Positions 1-9,865 of a stretch of DNA of 16,934 nt are shown one piece after another (the stretch's first letter is position 1; every line of letters starts with the position of its first letter). The stretch is from assembly GCA_964244895.1 (NCBI GenBank), contig CAXTKV010000111.1, positions 1 to 16,934 of the forward strand, in the 5' to 3' direction. The stretch comes from an uncultured Deinococcales bacterium (GTDB lineage Bacteria > Deinococcota > Deinococci > Deinococcales > JAAFIG01). A program made the position numbers and the translations under genes. The notes beneath the pieces were generated by a model, which ran no database searches, was not told where the DNA came from, and saw only the letters and a program-made list of their open reading frames with translations.

Positions 1-658
1 CGATCTTGTTCTGGGACTGTTCGACCTGAACCTGCAACAGCGCCAGGGCTTCATTTTTGGCGCGACTTGATTGCGACAGGCTGGCCTGAGCCTGCTGGAA
101 GTTGGCTTCGGCCTGCGCCAGGTTGGCCTTGCTGGTTTCCAGATCGGTCTGGGATAGGCCACCGATCTTGTAGACGCTCAGGTTGGCCTCGTAGGTTTTG
201 CGAGCCTTGTCGAGGCTGATCTGGGCGCTTTCCAGGGATGACTGGTTTTGCGTGGTGGTTTCCGGTGTCTTGCGCTGGCTGGTCGAGAGGTTGATCTGCG
301 CGGTCTTGAGCTGCAATTGCGCATCCGTCAGTTGCTGGCGAAGGCTGGTGTCGTCGAGCTTGAGGATCGTCTCGCCCGCCTGAACCTTCTCGCCCTCGCG
401 CCGGAATACCGTCACGACCTGACCGCTGGTCTGCGCGGCGATGCTGCTGTCCACGGTCGCCTCGAGCGTGCCGCTGACGGAACGGCTGGTGGTCAGCGCG
501 CCCGCGTTGACGGTGATCGCCCGGACTGAGGTGGGCGTCTGGGTCGAGGCGACGGGTTTGGTCGCCGCGTCGGTCTGGCCTTGCGCGCTTGGGCGCGTGC
601 AGGCGACCAGCGTCAGGGAAAGCGTGAGCGCGAGGATGACGGGTGCGTTTCGTGGCAT
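1..658 (-). CDS. Efflux periplasmic adaptor subunit (HlyD/MFP family), lipoprotein; truncated by left window edge
   Basis: Not in the ORF track because it is open at the edge. Manual translation from ATG 658 gives MPRNAPVILALTLSLTLVAC (lipobox), then SGTLEATVDSSIAAQTSGQVVTVFRREGEKVQAGETILKLDD (lipoyl/barrel-sandwich half-motif), then a long Gln/Ala coiled coil. It lies downstream of two TolC-like genes. Confidence 0.9.
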   Translation of the reverse strand, partial: MPRNAPVILALTLSLTLVACTRPSAQGQTDAATKPVASTQTPTSVRAITVNAGALTTSRSVSGTLEATVDSSIAAQTSGQVVTVFRREGEKVQAGETILKLDDTSLRQQLTDAQLQLKTAQINLSTSQRKTPETTTQNQSSLESAQISLDKARKTYEANLSVYKIGGLSQTDLETSKANLAQAEANFQQAQASLSQSSRAKNEALALLQVQVEQSQNKI

Positions 659-752
659 GGGAAACTCTCTTTCGAACTCGAGCTGGACGGTTTGCGGCGG
701 CACTGGAAAACGGTCTTGGGTCAGGATTTGTGGTTTTGATTGCGCTTTTTTG

Positions 753-807: not shown

Positions 808-1878
808 TCAGCTGGCCGGAACCAGACCCGCCACGTCCGTGCCGGACGCGGTCGAAAGGGACGCCAGGGCGCGCCAGTACGAATCCACCGACTGCGTGTA
901 CGTGAACTGCGAGCGCAGCGTCGAGACTTCGGTCTGCTGCAACTGCACCCTCGAGATCGTGCCGCTCTTGAACTTCGTCTGATCCTGGCTCAGGCTGGAA
1001 TTGGCGTTGTCCAGATTCTGCTTGGCGATGCGCACGTTCTCGAGCGCGTTCGAGACGCTGCGGCTGGCGTCGCGCAACTGCGTCACGGCGTTGGATCGGG
1101 TCGTGTCCAGCGTGCGCTGCGCGTTTTCCAGGGTCGTCTTGGCGTCGCGCAGCGTGGCGGGCGGGGTGTAATCGTTGTCCGAAAGCCGCACGTTCAGGTC
1201 AGCCAGTTGCACGCTCTGCGCGGCCTGCAGGACGCTCGGCAGGCGGGCCTCGAGCCCTTTTTCCAGGGTACCGATGTCAAATTTGACTTCCTTGAAGGCT
1301 GGCGGTGCGCCGACCGTCAGGTTGCCCGCACTGCTGGTGCCCAGGTAGACCTCGAGCCGGTTCGAGAAGATCGGCAGGTTGGCTTTGGCGTCCGCCAGGC
1401 TTTGCTTGCTGGACGACAGCGTGCTTTCGGCTTTGCTGACATCGAGCGCCGTGCCGTTCTTGGCGGCGAGTTTCGCCTTGGCGATGTCCAGGTTGCGCGA
1501 ATCGAGCGCGATCTGCGTCTCGAGCACCTTGATGTTTTCCTGGCCTTCAAACAAGTTCAGGTACGCGCCCAGCACGCCGCTCACGACTTCCAGGCGTTTG
1601 GCGCTCAATTGGACGGTGTTCAGCGTGGCCGTGTTGCGGGCCTGCGTCAGCGTCACGACCAGCGTGCTCGGGTCGGCTTCCTTGGCGGCCAGATCGGCCT
1701 GTGCGTTTTTGAGTGTGGCCACCGAAGAGGCCAGGTCTGGGCCTTTGGTGAAGGCCTGCTGAATGGCGTTCGTCAGGGTCAGCGCGGCGGTCTGGCCGAA
1801 CGCCAGTCCCGCGGTGGCGCTCAGCGCAAGGACACTCAAGAGCTTCTTGGATGGGAGAGCGAGCGTGATTGGGTTCAT
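808..1878 (-). CDS. TolC-family (OEP) protein, short form apparently lacking beta-barrel segments
   Basis: 356 aa with signal peptide (...AGLAFG|Q), LTLTNAIQQAFTKGPDL start, and two OEP repeats (AKLAAKNGTALDV; KFKSGTISRVQL). The start overlaps the upstream stop (ATGA, 1875-1878). Confidence 0.85.
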   Translation of the reverse strand: MNPITLALPSKKLLSVLALSATAGLAFGQTAALTLTNAIQQAFTKGPDLASSVATLKNAQADLAAKEADPSTLVVTLTQARNTATLNTVQLSAKRLEVVSGVLGAYLNLFEGQENIKVLETQIALDSRNLDIAKAKLAAKNGTALDVSKAESTLSSSKQSLADAKANLPIFSNRLEVYLGTSSAGNLTVGAPPAFKEVKFDIGTLEKGLEARLPSVLQAAQSVQLADLNVRLSDNDYTPPATLRDAKTTLENAQRTLDTTRSNAVTQLRDASRSVSNALENVRIAKQNLDNANSSLSQDQTKFKSGTISRVQLQQTEVSTLRSQFTYTQSVDSYWRALASLSTASGTDVAGLVPAS

Positions 1879-3227
1879 TCGGTGGCTCCTTGAGGGACGA
1901 GTTTGAAGGTTCCGATGGCGTTTTGCAGTCTGTAAACCGCGATCATGGTCGTGGCGGTGGCGCTCTCGAGGTCGCGTTGGGCTTGCAAGACGTTGACAGT
2001 GGCTTGTTGCAGGTCAATCGCAGTGTTCAGACCGGACTGGTTGCGGGCGGTCGCCGTCTCGAGGGTTTTTCTGGCCGTCTCGAGCGTGCTCTGAGAGACC
2101 TTGATGCGCGCCCTGGCGGTGATCACGTCGCTGTAGCGTTGTGCCACGTCCAGGGCGGCGGCCCGGCGGGTCGATTCCAGGCTGGCCCTGGCGTTGTCCA
2201 GCCCGGTCTGCGCCGCGTTGATGCGCGCGTCGCTCGATGGCGCGAGAATCGGAATGTTGGCCGAAACCGAGACGCTCACGCCGGTTCCGGTCGTGCTGCT
2301 CGAATTGTTGTTGAGCGGAACGGTTCCGGTCACGGATGCATTCCCCGTCTGGAAGTTCAGGCTGGTCTGTACGCTCGGGCTGCCGAGTCCGCCCGCCGTC
2401 AGCTGCCCGTAGCCCAGGTTGACGCTCGCGTTCGGCAAGAATCGGTCGCGCTGGGCGCTGCTGAGCGAGTCCTCGGCGTCTTGCACGCGTGAAATGGCCT
2501 TGAGCACGTCCGTCCGCCGTTCCAGTGCGGCCCGCGCGAGCGCTTCCGGTGTTCCCTGCGGCGGCTCGAGTTCCATCGGGGCGGTGGTCAGTTTGGTGCC
2601 GTTGGCGACACCTAAATTCGCCAGGTTGATCTGCAACGTGTTCTGCGCGGTCAACAGCGTCGATTGCGCCGTAGCCAGCGTCTGCTGGGCGCTCAGCAGA
2701 TCGGTCAGGGCAATCTGACCGTTGGTGTATTTCAGGTTCGCCACCCGCAGTTGCGCCTCCGCGAGCTTCTGGTTGGCGCTGGCGACATCCGCGTCCAGCC
2801 CCGCCGTGCGCGCGTTGAAATACGTGCTGAGCGTGGTTAAGGTCAGGCTGTTGCGCGTATCGCGCAAATCCAGCGCCGCGCGTTCAAAGGCGCGCTGGGC
2901 GCTGCGAATGCCGTCGTAGGTGGCCGACCACGGCAGCACGGAGGCGCTGGCGGTCACGGACAGTGAAGCCGCTGCGTTGGCATCTTTGGTCGAATCCGTC
3001 GGTTGGGTCAGGTTGTAGTTGCCGCCCGCCGAAAGGTTGATGCCCGTGGCGGCCTGCGCGGTCTCGAGGCTGCGTTGGGCGTTCTGGTAGGTCAGCGTCG
3101 CGATCTGCCAGTCCGGTGTGGCGCGCAGGCTCACGAGCGCGTTCTCGAGGCTGAACCCCGCGTCCTGAGCCAATGCGGCGCTGCCCAGGCACGCGAGCAG
3201 AGCGAATTTGAATGTTCGAGCGGTCAT
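1875..3227 (-). CDS. TolC-family outer membrane efflux protein
   Basis: 450 aa with signal peptide (SAALA|Q), FSLENAL start, OEP motifs KYTNGQIALTDLL and RNQSGLNTAIDL, and amphipathic beta segments. GGGAGGAA SD at 3236-3243 (minus strand). Confidence 0.9.
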   Translation of the reverse strand: MTARTFKFALLACLGSAALAQDAGFSLENALVSLRATPDWQIATLTYQNAQRSLETAQAATGINLSAGGNYNLTQPTDSTKDANAAASLSVTASASVLPWSATYDGIRSAQRAFERAALDLRDTRNSLTLTTLSTYFNARTAGLDADVASANQKLAEAQLRVANLKYTNGQIALTDLLSAQQTLATAQSTLLTAQNTLQINLANLGVANGTKLTTAPMELEPPQGTPEALARAALERRTDVLKAISRVQDAEDSLSSAQRDRFLPNASVNLGYGQLTAGGLGSPSVQTSLNFQTGNASVTGTVPLNNNSSSTTGTGVSVSVSANIPILAPSSDARINAAQTGLDNARASLESTRRAAALDVAQRYSDVITARARIKVSQSTLETARKTLETATARNQSGLNTAIDLQQATVNVLQAQRDLESATATTMIAVYRLQNAIGTFKLVPQGATE

Positions 3228-3316: not shown

Positions 3317-3371
3317 TTGACTGACCGTCAGTTCAGTCGAGTGAATATACACTAGACTGACGGTCAGTCAA
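3317..3371. promoter_or_regulatory. Two palindromic repressor operators (TetR-family-like), ACTGAC-N-GTCAGT
   Basis: TTGACTGACCGTCAGT (3317-3332) and its exact reverse complement ACTGACGGTCAGTCAA (3356-3371). One overlaps the -35/spacer and the other lies just downstream of the predicted +1. Confidence 0.8.
3344..3371 (-). promoter_or_regulatory. Sigma70-type promoter of the efflux operon
   Basis: Minus strand reads TTGACT (3371-3366), 16 nt, TATATT (3349-3344), pointing at the first tolC-like gene. Confidence 0.7.
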
Positions 3372-3802: not shown

Positions 3803-3865
3803 AAAGACCGTCCAGGACGAGATGAATCGCGTTTTTAAGCGATATTTTGCGTCTGGGACGGTTTT
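3803..3865. repeat. REP-like inverted pair downstream of thiolase
   Basis: ACCGTCCAGGACG (3807-3819) and CGTCTGGGACGGT (3850-3862), same family as 753-794. Confidence 0.75.
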
Positions 3866-3909: not shown

Positions 3910-5085
<1,176 letters not shown>

Positions 5086-5113
5086 GTCACCTCCGAATAC
5101 GTTGCGTGCCCGA

Positions 5114-5122
5114 ATTCTAGCA
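5114..5122 (-). promoter_or_regulatory. Extended -10 element (TGCTAGAAT) for thiolase
   Basis: Reverse complement of ATTCTAGCA, about 30 nt upstream of the ATG. Confidence 0.5.
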
Positions 5123-5221
5123 CCGGGGTTTTCGGCTGAAATGGGTGGTTCAGGTGCAATCATTCCCCATTTGAATGCTGCAGACGGCGCGTTCTCACGC
5201 GGTACTCGTACACTCGGGGCG

Positions 5222-8200
5222 GTGAGCGCCGCGTCTCTCGAGATCAAACTCTTCGGCGGTCTGGAACTGCGCGGGTCGGATGGTGCGCCGCTCGCGCTGC
5301 CATCGAGGGTCGCGCGTTCGTTGCTGGCGTACATCCTGACGCACCGCGACCGATCCCACCCGCGCGAGCGACTGATCGCCGTGTTCTGGCCGGACTTGCC
5401 CCAGCAGACGGCGCGCAGGCGGCTTTCTCAGGCGCTCTGGCGCATCCAGCAGGTACTCGGTGATGGTGTTCTTGAGGCCGATGTCTTGGCCGTGCGACTG
5501 AACCCGAGCGCCCCGATCCGGCTCGATCTCGAATCTTTCGAGGCTGCGTTCGGCATTGACCAGACCGGCGCGATTTCCACAGGGCTCTCCTCGGAGCGCC
5601 TTTCACAAGCGATCCAATCGTTTCGTGGTGCGTTCCTGGACGGACTCGACGACGACTGGGTGCTCGAGGCCCGCGAGGCGTTCCGCGAACAGTACCTGGT
5701 CGGCCTGGAGCGCCTCGGTAGGGACGCGGAAGCCTTCGGCAGTTTCGATCGCGCCCTCGAACTCGCCCGCCGGGTGGTGATTCTGGAGCCGATGCGGGAA
5801 CAGGCGCACCGCGAAGTCATGCGCTTGTGCCTGATTCTCTCTCGTCCGCGCGAAGCCTTAGAGCAGTACGAGCGCTGCCGCCGGGTCATGCTCGAAGAAT
5901 TCGGCGAACAGCCCGACGCGCAGACCAGGGGTCTTTACCAGCGCATCCAGATCGGTGAATCGAGCGCACAGCCCGGAACCTCACCCCTAGAGGTCGGCGC
6001 CAGCCTGCCGATGGTCGGGCGAGAGCGCGAGCGCGGCCTGCTGCTCGAGCACCTCGAGATGGCGCGTACAGGCCGCGGCGGGGTGGTGATGCTGGAAGGG
6101 GAACCCGGCCTGGGCAAGACCAGGCTTCTGAACGAACTCGCGCAGGATGCCGTCTGGCGCGGCTTCGAGGTCAGGTGGAGCCAGGGTCAGGAATGGGTCG
6201 CGCTCGAGCCCTACGCGCTGGTGCGGCAAGCCATAGAAACCGGACTGACCCCGATCCGGGCGGAACTGATCGCCGCGCAGCTCGAGCGCACGTGGTTGTA
6301 CGAGGCCGCGCGGGTCATTCCAGCTTTTGCAGCCTTTCAGAACGCCTCGCTGCCGCGCGTGCCACTCGAGGCCGAGCAGGACGGGACGCGATTGCGCGAG
6401 GCGCTCGTGCAGACCTTGAAGTCGCACGCTGCCGCCGCTCCGCAGGTCGCGATCTTTGATGACCTGCAATGGGCGGATGAGGCCAGCGCGGAGCTGCTGG
6501 TGGCGCTCGCCAGACAGCTTTTTACGGAATCGGTGCTGGTCGTGCTCAGTTACCGGCTGGACGAGGCCCGAGAGCGACCCGCCGTCTGGAATGCGCTACA
6601 GGCGATCGATGGCAGTTTTTGCCGAGCCAGGATCGCCCTCGAACCGCTCTCGAGCGCCGAGACGGGACAGCTCGTTCGTCGCGCGCTCGGTTCGGCCTCC
6701 GAGACGCCGTTCGCGCAGCGCCTCGGCGCTGAAGCCCAGGGGAATCCTCTTTTGGTTCTCGAAACGCTTCGGGCTGTGCTCGAGCACGGCGGTCTGGAGG
6801 ATGACCGGACGGAGCTTCCGCTGCCCGCCACGGTACGCGAGGTGATCGTGGCTCGCCTGACGCGGCTTTCGCCGCCAGCCCGAGCCGTCCTGGACGCAGC
6901 GGCGGTCATCGGTTCTAGCCCCGATGTCGAGCTCTGCATCGCCGCGAGCCGCCAGAATCCGACTGACACGCTCGCGTTGCTGGATCAGCTCGTTCGGCGG
7001 GGATACCTGGCGGAAAGCCCGACCGGATTGCGCTTCACGCACGACAGGCTGCGCCAGATCGTCTACGGCGAACTGATCGAGACCGACCGCCGCGCAATTC
7101 ACCGCGCCGTCGCTGAGGCGCTCGAGCGCCGATCCGACCGGGCGTTCGAGTTGCTGGCTCGACATTTCGACGAAGCGCTCGCGTGGGACAAGGCGCTCGA
7201 GTACCACCGCCGTTCGGCGGAACGCGCCATCGGGCTGCAAGACTACCAGGGCGCGCTGGTTCACCTCGACCGCGCGCTCAGCCTGGCCGATCCCCTCGGG
7301 TTGGATCTGGAAGAACGCTACGCGCTGCTCGAGCGGCGCGTCGAAGCGCTGGGCGTCCTGAACCGCCGACCCGAGCACGCGGCTGACCTGGAACGGATGG
7401 AGCGCCTGGCCGAAGGGAATCCCGTCCGGCTCGGGCGCGTCCGCTGCGGTCAGGCGCGTTTGCTGGTGGCCACGGGTCAATTTCAGCAAGGGAGCGACCT
7501 GGCCAGAACGGTGCTCGAAGATGCGCACGCCCGAGTCGATCACCTTCAGCAGGCCGACGCCCTGCGCGTGCTGGCGACGGTAGCGACGCGCACGGGGCGC
7601 AGGATCGATGCGCTGCCCATGAACCGCCAGATCGTCGAACTCTACCGGCTGGCCGAACACCTTCCGAGGCTGGCCACGGCGCACCGCTCCCTGGCGCAGA
7701 CGCTGATGCTGTTGCAGCATCTCGACGAGGCGCACCGCGAAATCATGGTTGCGCTCGGGCTTCACCGAAGGCTCAAAGACCGGATCGGAATCGCGGCGGA
7801 TGTGGCGGTACTCGGGCATGTCTGGCGATTCCGGGGGCAGCTCGCGCGCGCGGTGGCCTGCTACCGATTCGACCTCCAGACCAGCCGATCCATCAAGAAC
7901 CGCACCGGTGAGGGCTCGAGCCTGATCAACCTGGCGCAGGTCAGCGCTCGGTTGAACCTGCTCGGAGAAGCCATCCGGTGCTACGCGCAAGCGGTCGAGG
8001 TGTTCGCGGCGATCGACGACCCCGAAGGCGAAGCCAGCGCGCGGTACAACCTGGCGAGCTTGCAAGCTGGCTGGCTCGGGGATCACCAGGGGGCGCTCGA
8101 AAATCTGGAGGCGGCGCGAAGTTTCTTTGGGCGCGTGGGTGATGCCAACGGGCTGGCGTACTGCCTGCTGATCGAGGGAGAGATGGCGCTGGATCTCGAC

Positions 8201-9043
8201 GAGTACGACCGGGCGAGCGAGTTGCTGAACGACGAAATCCTTGTTTCGCAGACCCTCAAAAACCGCTGGTTGGGTGGACAGTACGACACGACCCTGGCGG
8301 AACTCGAGATTCGAAAAGGTCATCCCGAGCGCGCCCTGTCGCGCATCGAACGCGCCGAGGAACGCTGCCGGAGCCTGAAGTTGGACGCGCTTCTGGCCGG
8401 TCTGGTCGCCGCTCGTGCGGAAGCCCTGCTGGCGCACGGTCAACCCGAGGCCGCCTTTCGAGCGACCGCAGATCTCGAGGACGCAGATTTCAAGCTCGAG
8501 TTCGTGCGCCACCGCGCCCTCGTTGCGCTCGGACGCGATGCCGATGCGCTGGCATCGCTCGACAGAGCCCACGCCAGTCTGATGCGCGCACTCAGTGGAC
8601 TCGCGCCGGAGGATCGACGACGAAGCCTCCAGCGCATCTCGAGCCACCGCGCCATTGTTGAAGCCTGGGAAAACGCGCACCTCAAACGCGTCACCGCGCG
8701 CCTTCCACGGCTCGGTGCGCCGACGGGTCGGGGTTTGCGCGACGACGAGTACGTCGAGGTCAGCTGGACGCTCTTCTCGCCCGAAGACGACACCGCGCTC
8801 GACAAGGCGCTGCGTCGGCAATCGCAGCTCGCGCGCCTGCTGCGAGAAGCCTTTGATCAGGGAGCCGCACCGACCGTAGAAGACCTCGCGCGCGCGCTCG
8901 AGGCGAGTCCCGCGACGCTCAAACGCGACCTTTCTGCCTTGCGTCAATCCACGGGGCGGGTTCGAACCCGCGGGACGCGAACGCCCGAAACCGTGCCATC
9001 CATCGATCGCCCGGAGCCCCTTGAGATCCCCGTTTCGCGCTGA
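5222..9043 (+). CDS. Large SARP-family regulator: winged HTH + BTAD + STAND AAA ATPase + TPR + C-terminal DUF1670-like HTH
   Basis: [11 protein letters not shown]...RSLLAYIL...[11 protein letters not shown]...[11 protein letters not shown] (SARP N-terminus); [13 protein letters not shown] (BTAD); MVGRERE, Walker A GEPGLGKT, Walker [32 protein letters not shown]-like helices; terminal [20 protein letters not shown]...TRG. Start placed at in-frame GTG 5222, 7 nt after TACACT. Confidence 0.88.
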
Positions 9044-9385: not shown

Positions 9386-9865
9386 ATGAAAAAACGAACG
9401 ATGAGAAAACTGTTGATCTCGCTGGTGGTGGCTGGAAGCCTGCTGGCTGGAGGGTCGCAAGCCCAGTCCGCCTACGCGGGTGGCGGCTTGGCGCTCAATC
9501 TGGTCACCGGGACGCTGCTGTTCGGTTTCGATCTCCAGGTCGGGTCTGACGACTTGTTCACCAAAGACTTCGGCGGTCGCTTCGACGCGCAACTGTTCGT
9601 CACACCGGGTTTCAATCTGGCGCTGGGTCTGGACGTGTACGGTCGCTTTTTGACTGGACGGATCGCGCCTTACCTCGGTTTCGGCGGCCAGATCGTACCG
9701 ACGACCGACCCGCTTTTGTTCATCGTTCACGGGCTGGCGGGCGTGGATTTCCGGATCTCCAGGCCCGTCAGTCTGTTTCTCGAGCTGACGCCTGGGCTGG
9801 CGATTCAGGGCGGAGCCACGGCGTTCGATATCGGCATCAATCTGGGTGTTCGAGCGCGGTTCTAA
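9386..9865 (+). CDS. Small outer-membrane beta-barrel protein (probably about 8 strands)
   Basis: Signal peptide (GSQA|Q), alternating Gly/hydrophobic strands, C-terminal LGVRARF with terminal Phe (BAM-type signal). GGGAGG SD at 9376-9381. Confidence 0.8.
   Translation: MKKRTMRKLLISLVVAGSLLAGGSQAQSAYAGGGLALNLVTGTLLFGFDLQVGSDDLFTKDFGGRFDAQLFVTPGFNLALGLDVYGRFLTGRIAPYLGFGGQIVPTTDPLLFIVHGLAGVDFRISRPVSLFLELTPGLAIQGGATAFDIGINLGVRARF

What the first reader, a model, noticed from the sequence alone, without database searches (positions are those of the whole stretch)
808..3227. Complementary TolC pair: a barrel-less subunit coupled to an extra-stranded subunit, possibly a hetero-oligomeric or two-tier exit duct
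Seen: aligning the two proteins by eye, the helical OEP segments match but the beta-hairpins do not. In repeat 1 the 450-aa protein has GINLSAGGNYNL...SLSVTASASVLPW (about 2928-3044), where the 356-aa protein has only DPSTL. In repeat 2 the long protein has about 66 aa with four strand-like segments (ASVNLGYG, SVQTSLNF, NASVTGTV, VSVSVSANIP; about 2244-2441), where the short one has only DYTPP. The genes overlap by ATGA. Established: canonical TolC is a homotrimer with 4 strands per protomer and a 12-stranded barrel. Inference, two alternatives: (a) a 2:1 heterotrimer (6+6+0 = 12 strands), or (b) an 18-stranded homotrimer plus a membrane-free helical trimer that lengthens the tunnel across a wide periplasm. 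Similar pairs may be common in this lineage but annotated only as 'TolC family'.
Basis: partly seen in the sequence, partly recalled or inferred. Interest (0 to 1): 0.75.

Follow-up and report, generated by a model that had tools for sequence, protein, structure and literature searches.

The report
Two-storey TolC duct with barrel-less spacer
Two overlapping TolC-type exit-duct genes in a Deinococcus-group bacterium encode one protein predicted to have six membrane strands instead of the usual four and one predicted to have none, a pairing kept across the phylum, and they likely form a two-storey efflux duct in which the strand-less protein lengthens the tunnel across an unusually wide cell envelope.

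Summary
Both genes are OEP/TolC-fold. AlphaFold2 gives the 450-aa protein (A) six amphipathic strands (2+4) and the 356-aa protein (B) none. B's hairpins are replaced by short conserved DP and DNDYTP turns. The operon is A-B-adaptor-RND pump; a second pair in the genome serves a MacB-type ABC exporter. The pairing is near-obligate in Deinococcota: 167 of 170 loci picked by A carry B, and the three misses are cut by contig ends. The same 6+0 pattern occurs in Atribacter-like metagenome loci. How the two assemble is not shown. Home-made covariation analysis gives a modest B-to-B side-by-side signal, little for A-A and none for A-B. This leans against the 2:1 heterotrimer and towards a B trimer under an 18-stranded A trimer. 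When the genes separate, B stays with the adaptor and pump. Odds: two-storey 0.5, A2B 0.2, mixed rings 0.15, unconnected 0.15. Six-stranded TolC models and barrel-deficient TolC-like proteins are each in print; eight searches found no paper on the pair. New variant of a known machine.

The parts
1875..3227 (-). Gene A, 450 aa: OEP/TolC-fold outer-membrane subunit with a signal peptide and six predicted membrane strands
2940..3038 (-). A repeat-1 beta-hairpin (residues 64-96), the normal two strands
2256..2432 (-). A repeat-2 four-stranded meander (residues 266-324)
2316..2390 (-). The extra hairpin of A (residues 280-304) with the conserved periplasm-side LNFQTG turn
808..1878 (-). Gene B, 356 aa: all-helical OEP/TolC-fold protein with a signal peptide, no lipobox and no beta-barrel part; its start overlaps A's stop (ATGA)
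1660..1674 (-). B top turn 1 (D69-L73) in place of hairpin 1; D and P kept in over 90% of weighted homologues
1159..1179 (-). B top turn 2 (D234-P240) in place of hairpin 2
1..658 (-). 5' part of the periplasmic adaptor (MFP) gene, lipoprotein-type N-terminus, long helical hairpin; it continues on contig C163 and is followed there by an RND transporter gene
3317..3371 (-). Sigma-70-like promoter (TTGACT-16-TATATT, 3371-3344) overlapped by a 21-nt inverted repeat, likely a repressor operator
   Evidence: operator role inferred

Best explanation
A and B are the two exit-duct proteins of one efflux operon (A-B-adaptor-RND pump), and they likely work as two storeys: A would form a trimer whose 3 x 6 strands make an 18-stranded outer-membrane pore, and B would form a membrane-free helical trimer that docks under A by its strand-less top and onto the adaptor by its TolC-type bottom tips, lengthening the tunnel by about 10 nm. 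Shown here: the operon, the folds and strand counts (models), the fixed pairing, the long adaptor hairpin. Weakly supported: B packs side by side against B. Inferred only: trimer number, the A-on-B docking surface, a sealed tunnel, and drug or metabolite efflux as the job.
For: (1) B-B lateral covariation. Contacts seen inside the protomer (H3 with H6/H8) were mapped by the internal repeat onto the between-protomer face (H7 with H2/H4; that face is interprotomer in TolC and VceC per passages of PMC8277102). On 369 B sequences the mean z was 1.03 (shifted-template null sd 0.18; cross-validated inside-protomer controls 1.12 and 1.56). It repeats in two disjoint clades (0.61, 0.64). It exceeds all 12 neighbour-swap nulls (0.77 against 0.06-0.54) and holds at A's depth (0.62-0.77). 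A ring with one B has no such contact. (2) A-B lateral scores stay at null level: -0.02/0.18, -0.04/0.11, -0.05/0.22 with 315 pairs, mispaired nulls -0.19 to 0.32. (3) B's two adaptor-binding tips are its most conserved segments (1.81 and 1.86 bits), its top turns come next (1.80, 1.56), and A's first tip is average (1.20). (4) In the three true lone-B loci B sits with an adaptor and a pump (L095, L361, L379). The two true lone-A loci show no adaptor in the stretch fetched (L084, L350). In G041 (100% complete, 4,326 bases withheld) B is the only OEP gene found. (5) An 18-stranded trimer of six-stranded protomers was modelled for two Brachyspira TolCs (bioRxiv 10.1101/2025.01.03.631275, passages). 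(6) The need exists: the membranes of D. radiodurans are about 95-100 nm apart (PMC12088418, passages), and the adaptor arms here are 65-72 residues in 157 of 163 loci.
Against: A-A lateral covariation, which an A trimer should give, was not detected: 0.03-0.21 in real data, inside its nulls. A mostly canonical OEP control gave 0.56 at a third of the depth. The B-B result is post hoc: simple band tests showed no B-B excess (p 0.27-0.66), and on the paired-only alignment it is 0.36 against nulls up to 0.32. A-tip to B-top covariation is barely above null (0.22 against 0.00-0.16), and the adaptor-tip test was blank. Six plus six plus zero gives the canonical 12 strands without further assumptions. 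One B storey would not bridge 95 nm. The 6+0 link across phyla may be one ancestral event.
Confidence: 0.5

Rival explanations
1. A2B heterotrimer: two A and one B close one 12-helix tube, and the two A supply a 12-stranded barrel.
For: The strand arithmetic restores the TolC number. The pairing is near-obligate. A and B identities track each other (Spearman 0.88 over 237 pairs), though shared inheritance gives that too. B has no lipobox (1 lipobox-like match in 237), so it needs a partner to reach the outer membrane. A does not show the homotrimer signal.
Against: It predicts no B-B contact, yet B-B is the only between-subunit signal found. A-B lateral signal is absent. An intact B-adaptor-RND operon stands in a genome with no A found (G041). 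A's H6-H7 pair stays packed up to the membrane (D240-A357, Q259-Q340), so each A would have to spread six strands over 180 degrees from helices covering 120 (geometric inference).
Confidence: 0.2
2. Mixed architecture: an A2B cap in the membrane with one or more B trimers stacked below, or another B-rich ring such as AB2.
For: It accounts at once for B-B signal present and A-A signal weak, and for the fixed 6+0 pairing.
Against: No A-B lateral covariation. AB2 alone leaves six strands that cannot close a membrane barrel (established: membrane barrels have eight or more strands; recalled). It needs more assumptions.
Confidence: 0.15
3. Co-regulated but not sealed together: B3 on the adaptor carries cargo through the thick peptidoglycan and releases it into the outer periplasm, and A3 is a separate wide pore.
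For: No A-B covariation in any geometry. The 95-100 nm envelope of D. radiodurans is longer than pump plus one B plus one A (about 40 nm by helix length, inferred). Barrel-deficient TolC-like proteins occur with pumps in single-membrane Firmicutes (PMC8809574, section 8). B alone in G041.
Against: A keeps a full 10-nm helical domain with a conserved second tip (G399 100%, R395 89%), which suggests a docking partner. B's top turns are conserved. The genes are translationally coupled in most loci (223 of 237 abut or overlap).
Confidence: 0.15

Closest known systems
TolC/OprM outer-membrane factors (Pfam OEP PF02321; PDB 1EK9, 1WP1)
   Same: Two OEP repeats, the same helical fold (Foldseek TM 0.69-0.72 to TolC), G-turn tips, operon with adaptor plus RND or MacB-type ABC transporter.
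   Different: Known members are homotrimers with four strands per protomer (PMC8277102 section 58). Here the protomers have six and zero, and they come as a fixed gene pair. Both fall far below the TIGR01844 cut-off (90 and 57 bits against 225).
Brachyspira pilosicoli TolC proteins BP951000_RS05600 and RS09000 (bioRxiv 10.1101/2025.01.03.631275)
   Same: Six strands per protomer, modelled as an 18-stranded trimer (passages).
   Different: Models only. No strand-less partner is mentioned in the passages read. I did not check which repeat carries their extra hairpin.
TolC-like proteins of monoderm Firmicutes, e.g. C. difficile (PMC8809574)
   Same: TolC-like proteins in pump operons whose model has an omission in the barrel domain (section 8).
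   Different: Those hosts have one membrane and the protein was proposed to sit in the S-layer. B is in two-membrane bacteria and is paired with a six-stranded subunit. The paper's S6 figure was not seen.

Membership tests
OEP/TolC superfamily (A and B) | Two OEP repeats above the Pfam cut-off | tested here: met
   A 160 bits, B 74.5 bits, cut-off 22, two stretches each
OEP/TolC superfamily (A and B) | TolC helical fold (long H3/H7, stacked H2/H4 and H6/H8) | tested here: met
   Models; Foldseek top hits all OMFs
OEP/TolC superfamily (A and B) | Encoded with a periplasmic adaptor and an inner-membrane transporter | tested here: met
   Adaptor in the window and RND on the adjoining contig; RND in 29 and MacB in 49 of 105 pair loci with longer flanks, nothing seen in 22
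Canonical outer-membrane factor (A) | Four membrane strands per protomer | tested here: not met
   Six strands in the model, all amphipathic
Canonical outer-membrane factor (B) | Four membrane strands per protomer | tested here: not met
   No strands; turns of fixed short length in 238 of 238 rows
Canonical outer-membrane factor (A and B) | Homotrimer | tested here: inconclusive
   Covariation hints at B-B contact and does not detect A-A; oligomer number not measurable
TIGR01844 TolC family outer membrane protein | Score above the curated cut-off of 225 bits | tested here: not met
   A 90, B 57.2 bits
OprM/NodT-type lipoprotein OMFs | N-terminal lipobox cysteine | tested here: not met
   B has no cysteine and A's signal peptide ends in AxA; lipobox-like motif in 1 of 237 A and 1 of 237 B
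Tripartite efflux pump | Export of substrate across both membranes | not testable with these tools
   Needs knock-outs and transport assays

The most novel reading that the evidence does not exclude
B is a self-stacking spacer: OMF-type tips at one end and adaptor-like helical turns at the other let B trimers dock head to tail, so that A3-(B3)n-adaptor-pump forms a length-adjustable tube able to cross the roughly 100-nm envelope of Deinococcota. The hint is weak: covariation between B's top turns and its own bottom tips is 0.71 against 0.36-0.56 in 16 nulls, with windows chosen after seeing the data.
Probability: 0.2. Interest if true: 0.9.

Novelty: new variant of a known kind. Interest (0 to 1): 0.7.

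Why it matters
Every solved tripartite pump uses one homotrimeric exit duct sized for a proteobacterial periplasm. In the Deinococcota sampled here no ordinary four-stranded TolC was found; the ducts come as this 6+0 pair, used by both RND and MacB-type pumps. Either outcome would be new: a heteromeric TolC, or a four-part pump with a membrane-free spacer and an 18-stranded pore. It makes an open question testable in tractable, harmless hosts (Thermus, Deinococcus): how do trans-envelope machines cross the very wide envelopes of deep-branching two-membrane bacteria?

Tried and rejected
Complex prediction (B 47-340 x3 with A 380-418 x3): verdict 'no answer', score 0.00 in two runs, controls not folded; not used as evidence. 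A2B, A3 and A3B3 at full length exceed the tool's size. A-B gene fusion: two long open frames suggested one, but A and B are separate ORFs there; no search for longer fused forms was run. B as a decayed pseudogene: rejected, the turn lengths are fixed and about 125 representatives at 50% clustering keep them. The extra A segment as a surface loop like TolC's: rejected on the model and the alternation pattern, though length alone does not separate them. Unguided A-B covariation: top scores no higher than the mispaired control (7.4 against 8.1). Band tests for lateral contacts: B-B not significant; A-A H7-H4 p 0.005, not repeated (p 0.17). Adaptor-tip covariation with A or B tips: blank at 163 triples; the first adaptor alignment was contaminated with B sequences and was redone. 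Edge conservation of A against B: no clear difference. Head-to-tail B stacking: mostly explained by phylogeny. PMC10665443 uses 'barrel-less' for MlaD, not TolC (passages). L047 was dropped from all covariation sets because its A-like piece is incomplete.

Full report
Observation. The minus strand carries a 450-aa gene (A, 1875-3227) and a 356-aa gene (B, 808-1878) that overlap by ATGA, followed by an adaptor (MFP) gene that runs off the window. Both match Pfam OEP twice, and their models match TolC-type structures first. The A model has six strands, two in repeat 1 and four in repeat 2, each with one hydrophobic and one polar face. The B model has none.

Context. The neighbouring contig C163 overlaps the window's start by 14 bases, completes the adaptor and continues into an RND transporter. 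Five close relatives have the same RND operon (L010, L011, L013, L046, L121). A promoter-like site with an overlapping inverted repeat lies upstream. The genome has one more OEP locus, again an A+B pair, followed by an adaptor and a MacB-type ABC exporter. Named relatives are Deinococcales, Meiothermus, Calidithermus, Thermus and Deinococcus, so the host is a Deinococcota bacterium.

Co-occurrence. Of 72 loci found by a B motif, 66 have A upstream, 5 are cut by a contig end and 1 is incomplete. I fetched 170 loci picked by A: the top 30 of each of three searches plus 80 chosen from their lists, not all listed matches, with some repeats. Of these 167 have B, and the 3 misses reach a contig end. 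A further 109 loci gave 102 pairs, 5 A alone (4 at contig ends) and 2 B alone. True lone genes are few: A in L084 and L350, B in L095, L361 and L379. Five Deinococcaceae genomes without A had no OEP match at all. I saw no four-stranded OEP among the Deinococcota loci read; strand counts for homologues rest on alignment, not on models. Strand-less B proteins also carry Dictyoglomaceae and Ca. Atribacteria labels. In metagenome loci of the Atribacter-like group and one more distant group, the partner again shows two plus four strand-like segments by eye (L126, L128, L133, L139, L146, L148, L150). These are related lineages, so the pattern may be one ancestral event.

Assembly. No tool here could fold the full oligomers, so I used covariation. 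Within chains it recovers the expected helix pairs. Between A and B it finds nothing above mispaired controls. Simple band tests for side-by-side contacts were negative for B-B. One strong B pair, L56-P239, was the exact repeat image of an inside-protomer pair, L73-V223. I then built a 48-cell template from inside-protomer contacts and moved it onto the between-protomer face, H7 against H2/H4; passages of PMC8277102 name that face as interprotomer. B scored 1.03, A 0.11, A-on-B -0.02 and B-on-A 0.18, with null sd about 0.18 and cross-validated controls 1.12 and 1.56. B's score repeated in two disjoint clades, beat 12 of 12 neighbour-swap nulls and held at A's depth. A control of 157 mostly canonical OEPs, which includes 3 A-type and 10 long-insert sequences, scored 0.56. 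Against this: with only the paired sequences B fell to 0.36 with nulls up to 0.32, and A rose to 0.15-0.21, still within its nulls. One intended negative control scored 0.29-0.41. The test was designed after looking at the data. I read it as modest evidence that B touches B, and no evidence that A touches A or B sideways.

Mechanism. A ring with a single B cannot give a B-B contact, so A2B is disfavoured. B keeps both canonical bottom tips as its most conserved segments, and its two top turns are nearly as conserved. When the genes part, B stays with adaptor and pump, and one complete genome has B as its only OEP. I therefore favour B3 as a membrane-free tube on the adaptor with A3 above it as an 18-stranded pore (0.5). 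The missing A-A signal is unexplained by this model and keeps A2B (0.2) and mixed rings (0.15) alive. The membranes of D. radiodurans are about 95-100 nm apart (PMC12088418, passages). That gives a reason for a spacer, but one storey adds only about 10 nm (periplasmic domain about 100 A in PMC8277102). Either several B trimers stack, the envelope pinches locally, or the duct is not continuous (0.15). The hint for head-to-tail stacking is weak. Efflux as the function follows from the RND and MacB partners and was not tested.

Comparison with what is known. Both proteins belong to the OEP superfamily and fail the four-strand feature of canonical outer-membrane factors. Six-stranded protomers and 18-stranded trimers were modelled for Brachyspira (bioRxiv 10.1101/2025.01.03.631275, passages only; supplements closed). 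TolC-like proteins with a barrel omission were noted in single-membrane Firmicutes (PMC8809574, passages and section 8; figure S6 not seen). PMC8277102 was read in passages and the first part of section 58, and only its first 300,000 characters are held. Eight full-text searches (listings only unless named above) found no paper on a fixed six-plus-zero pair; subscription journals are not covered. An earlier unchecked note of this scan describes the same pairing in another genome (e1-7161791); it is not independent evidence.

Verdict. A real, conserved and apparently undescribed variant of the TolC exit duct. The anatomy and the pairing are solid; the assembly is a testable inference. Interest 0.7.

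Noticed in passing
G000:C74:12367-19364 (L002, L007, L009): Second A+B pair of this genome, followed by adaptor, ABC ATPase, MacB-type permease and a small signal-peptide protein, next to a two-component system.
   Followed up: partly
P0205-P0209, P0215, P0218, P0224-P0226: OEP proteins with a long strand-like insert in repeat 1 instead of repeat 2, possibly a second, independent six-stranded type; their neighbours are unknown.
   Followed up: no
ESM Atlas hit rank 10 for P0002: A cluster of 332-aa 'outer membrane efflux proteins', commonest in Pseudomonadota; its length suggests another strand-less type.
   Followed up: no
L379:1627-5201 (G041): Intact TetR-B-adaptor-RND operon with no A gene beside it and none found in the genome.
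   Followed up: partly
L390:1860-4413 (G060): A is in several frame pieces while B is whole; either decay of A or an assembly error.
   Followed up: no
window 679-691, 753-794, 3804-3865: A short palindromic element (core CGTCCTGGACGGT) recurs between genes, a REP-like repeat; one copy forms a hairpin between B and the adaptor gene.
   Followed up: no
window 9386-9865 (+): 159-aa signal-peptide protein with alternating strand-like segments and a C-terminal Phe, no Pfam match; looks like a small outer-membrane barrel.
   Followed up: no
window about 5075-9043 (+): Large SARP/BTAD-AAA-TPR regulator with a C-terminal DUF1670/helix-turn-helix region, divergent from a thiolase gene.
   Followed up: no
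adaptor genes of 163 pair loci: The rising arm of the adaptor hairpin comes in steps of about 65 and 72 residues, a few at 79 and 98; heptad-sized length tuning.
   Followed up: partly
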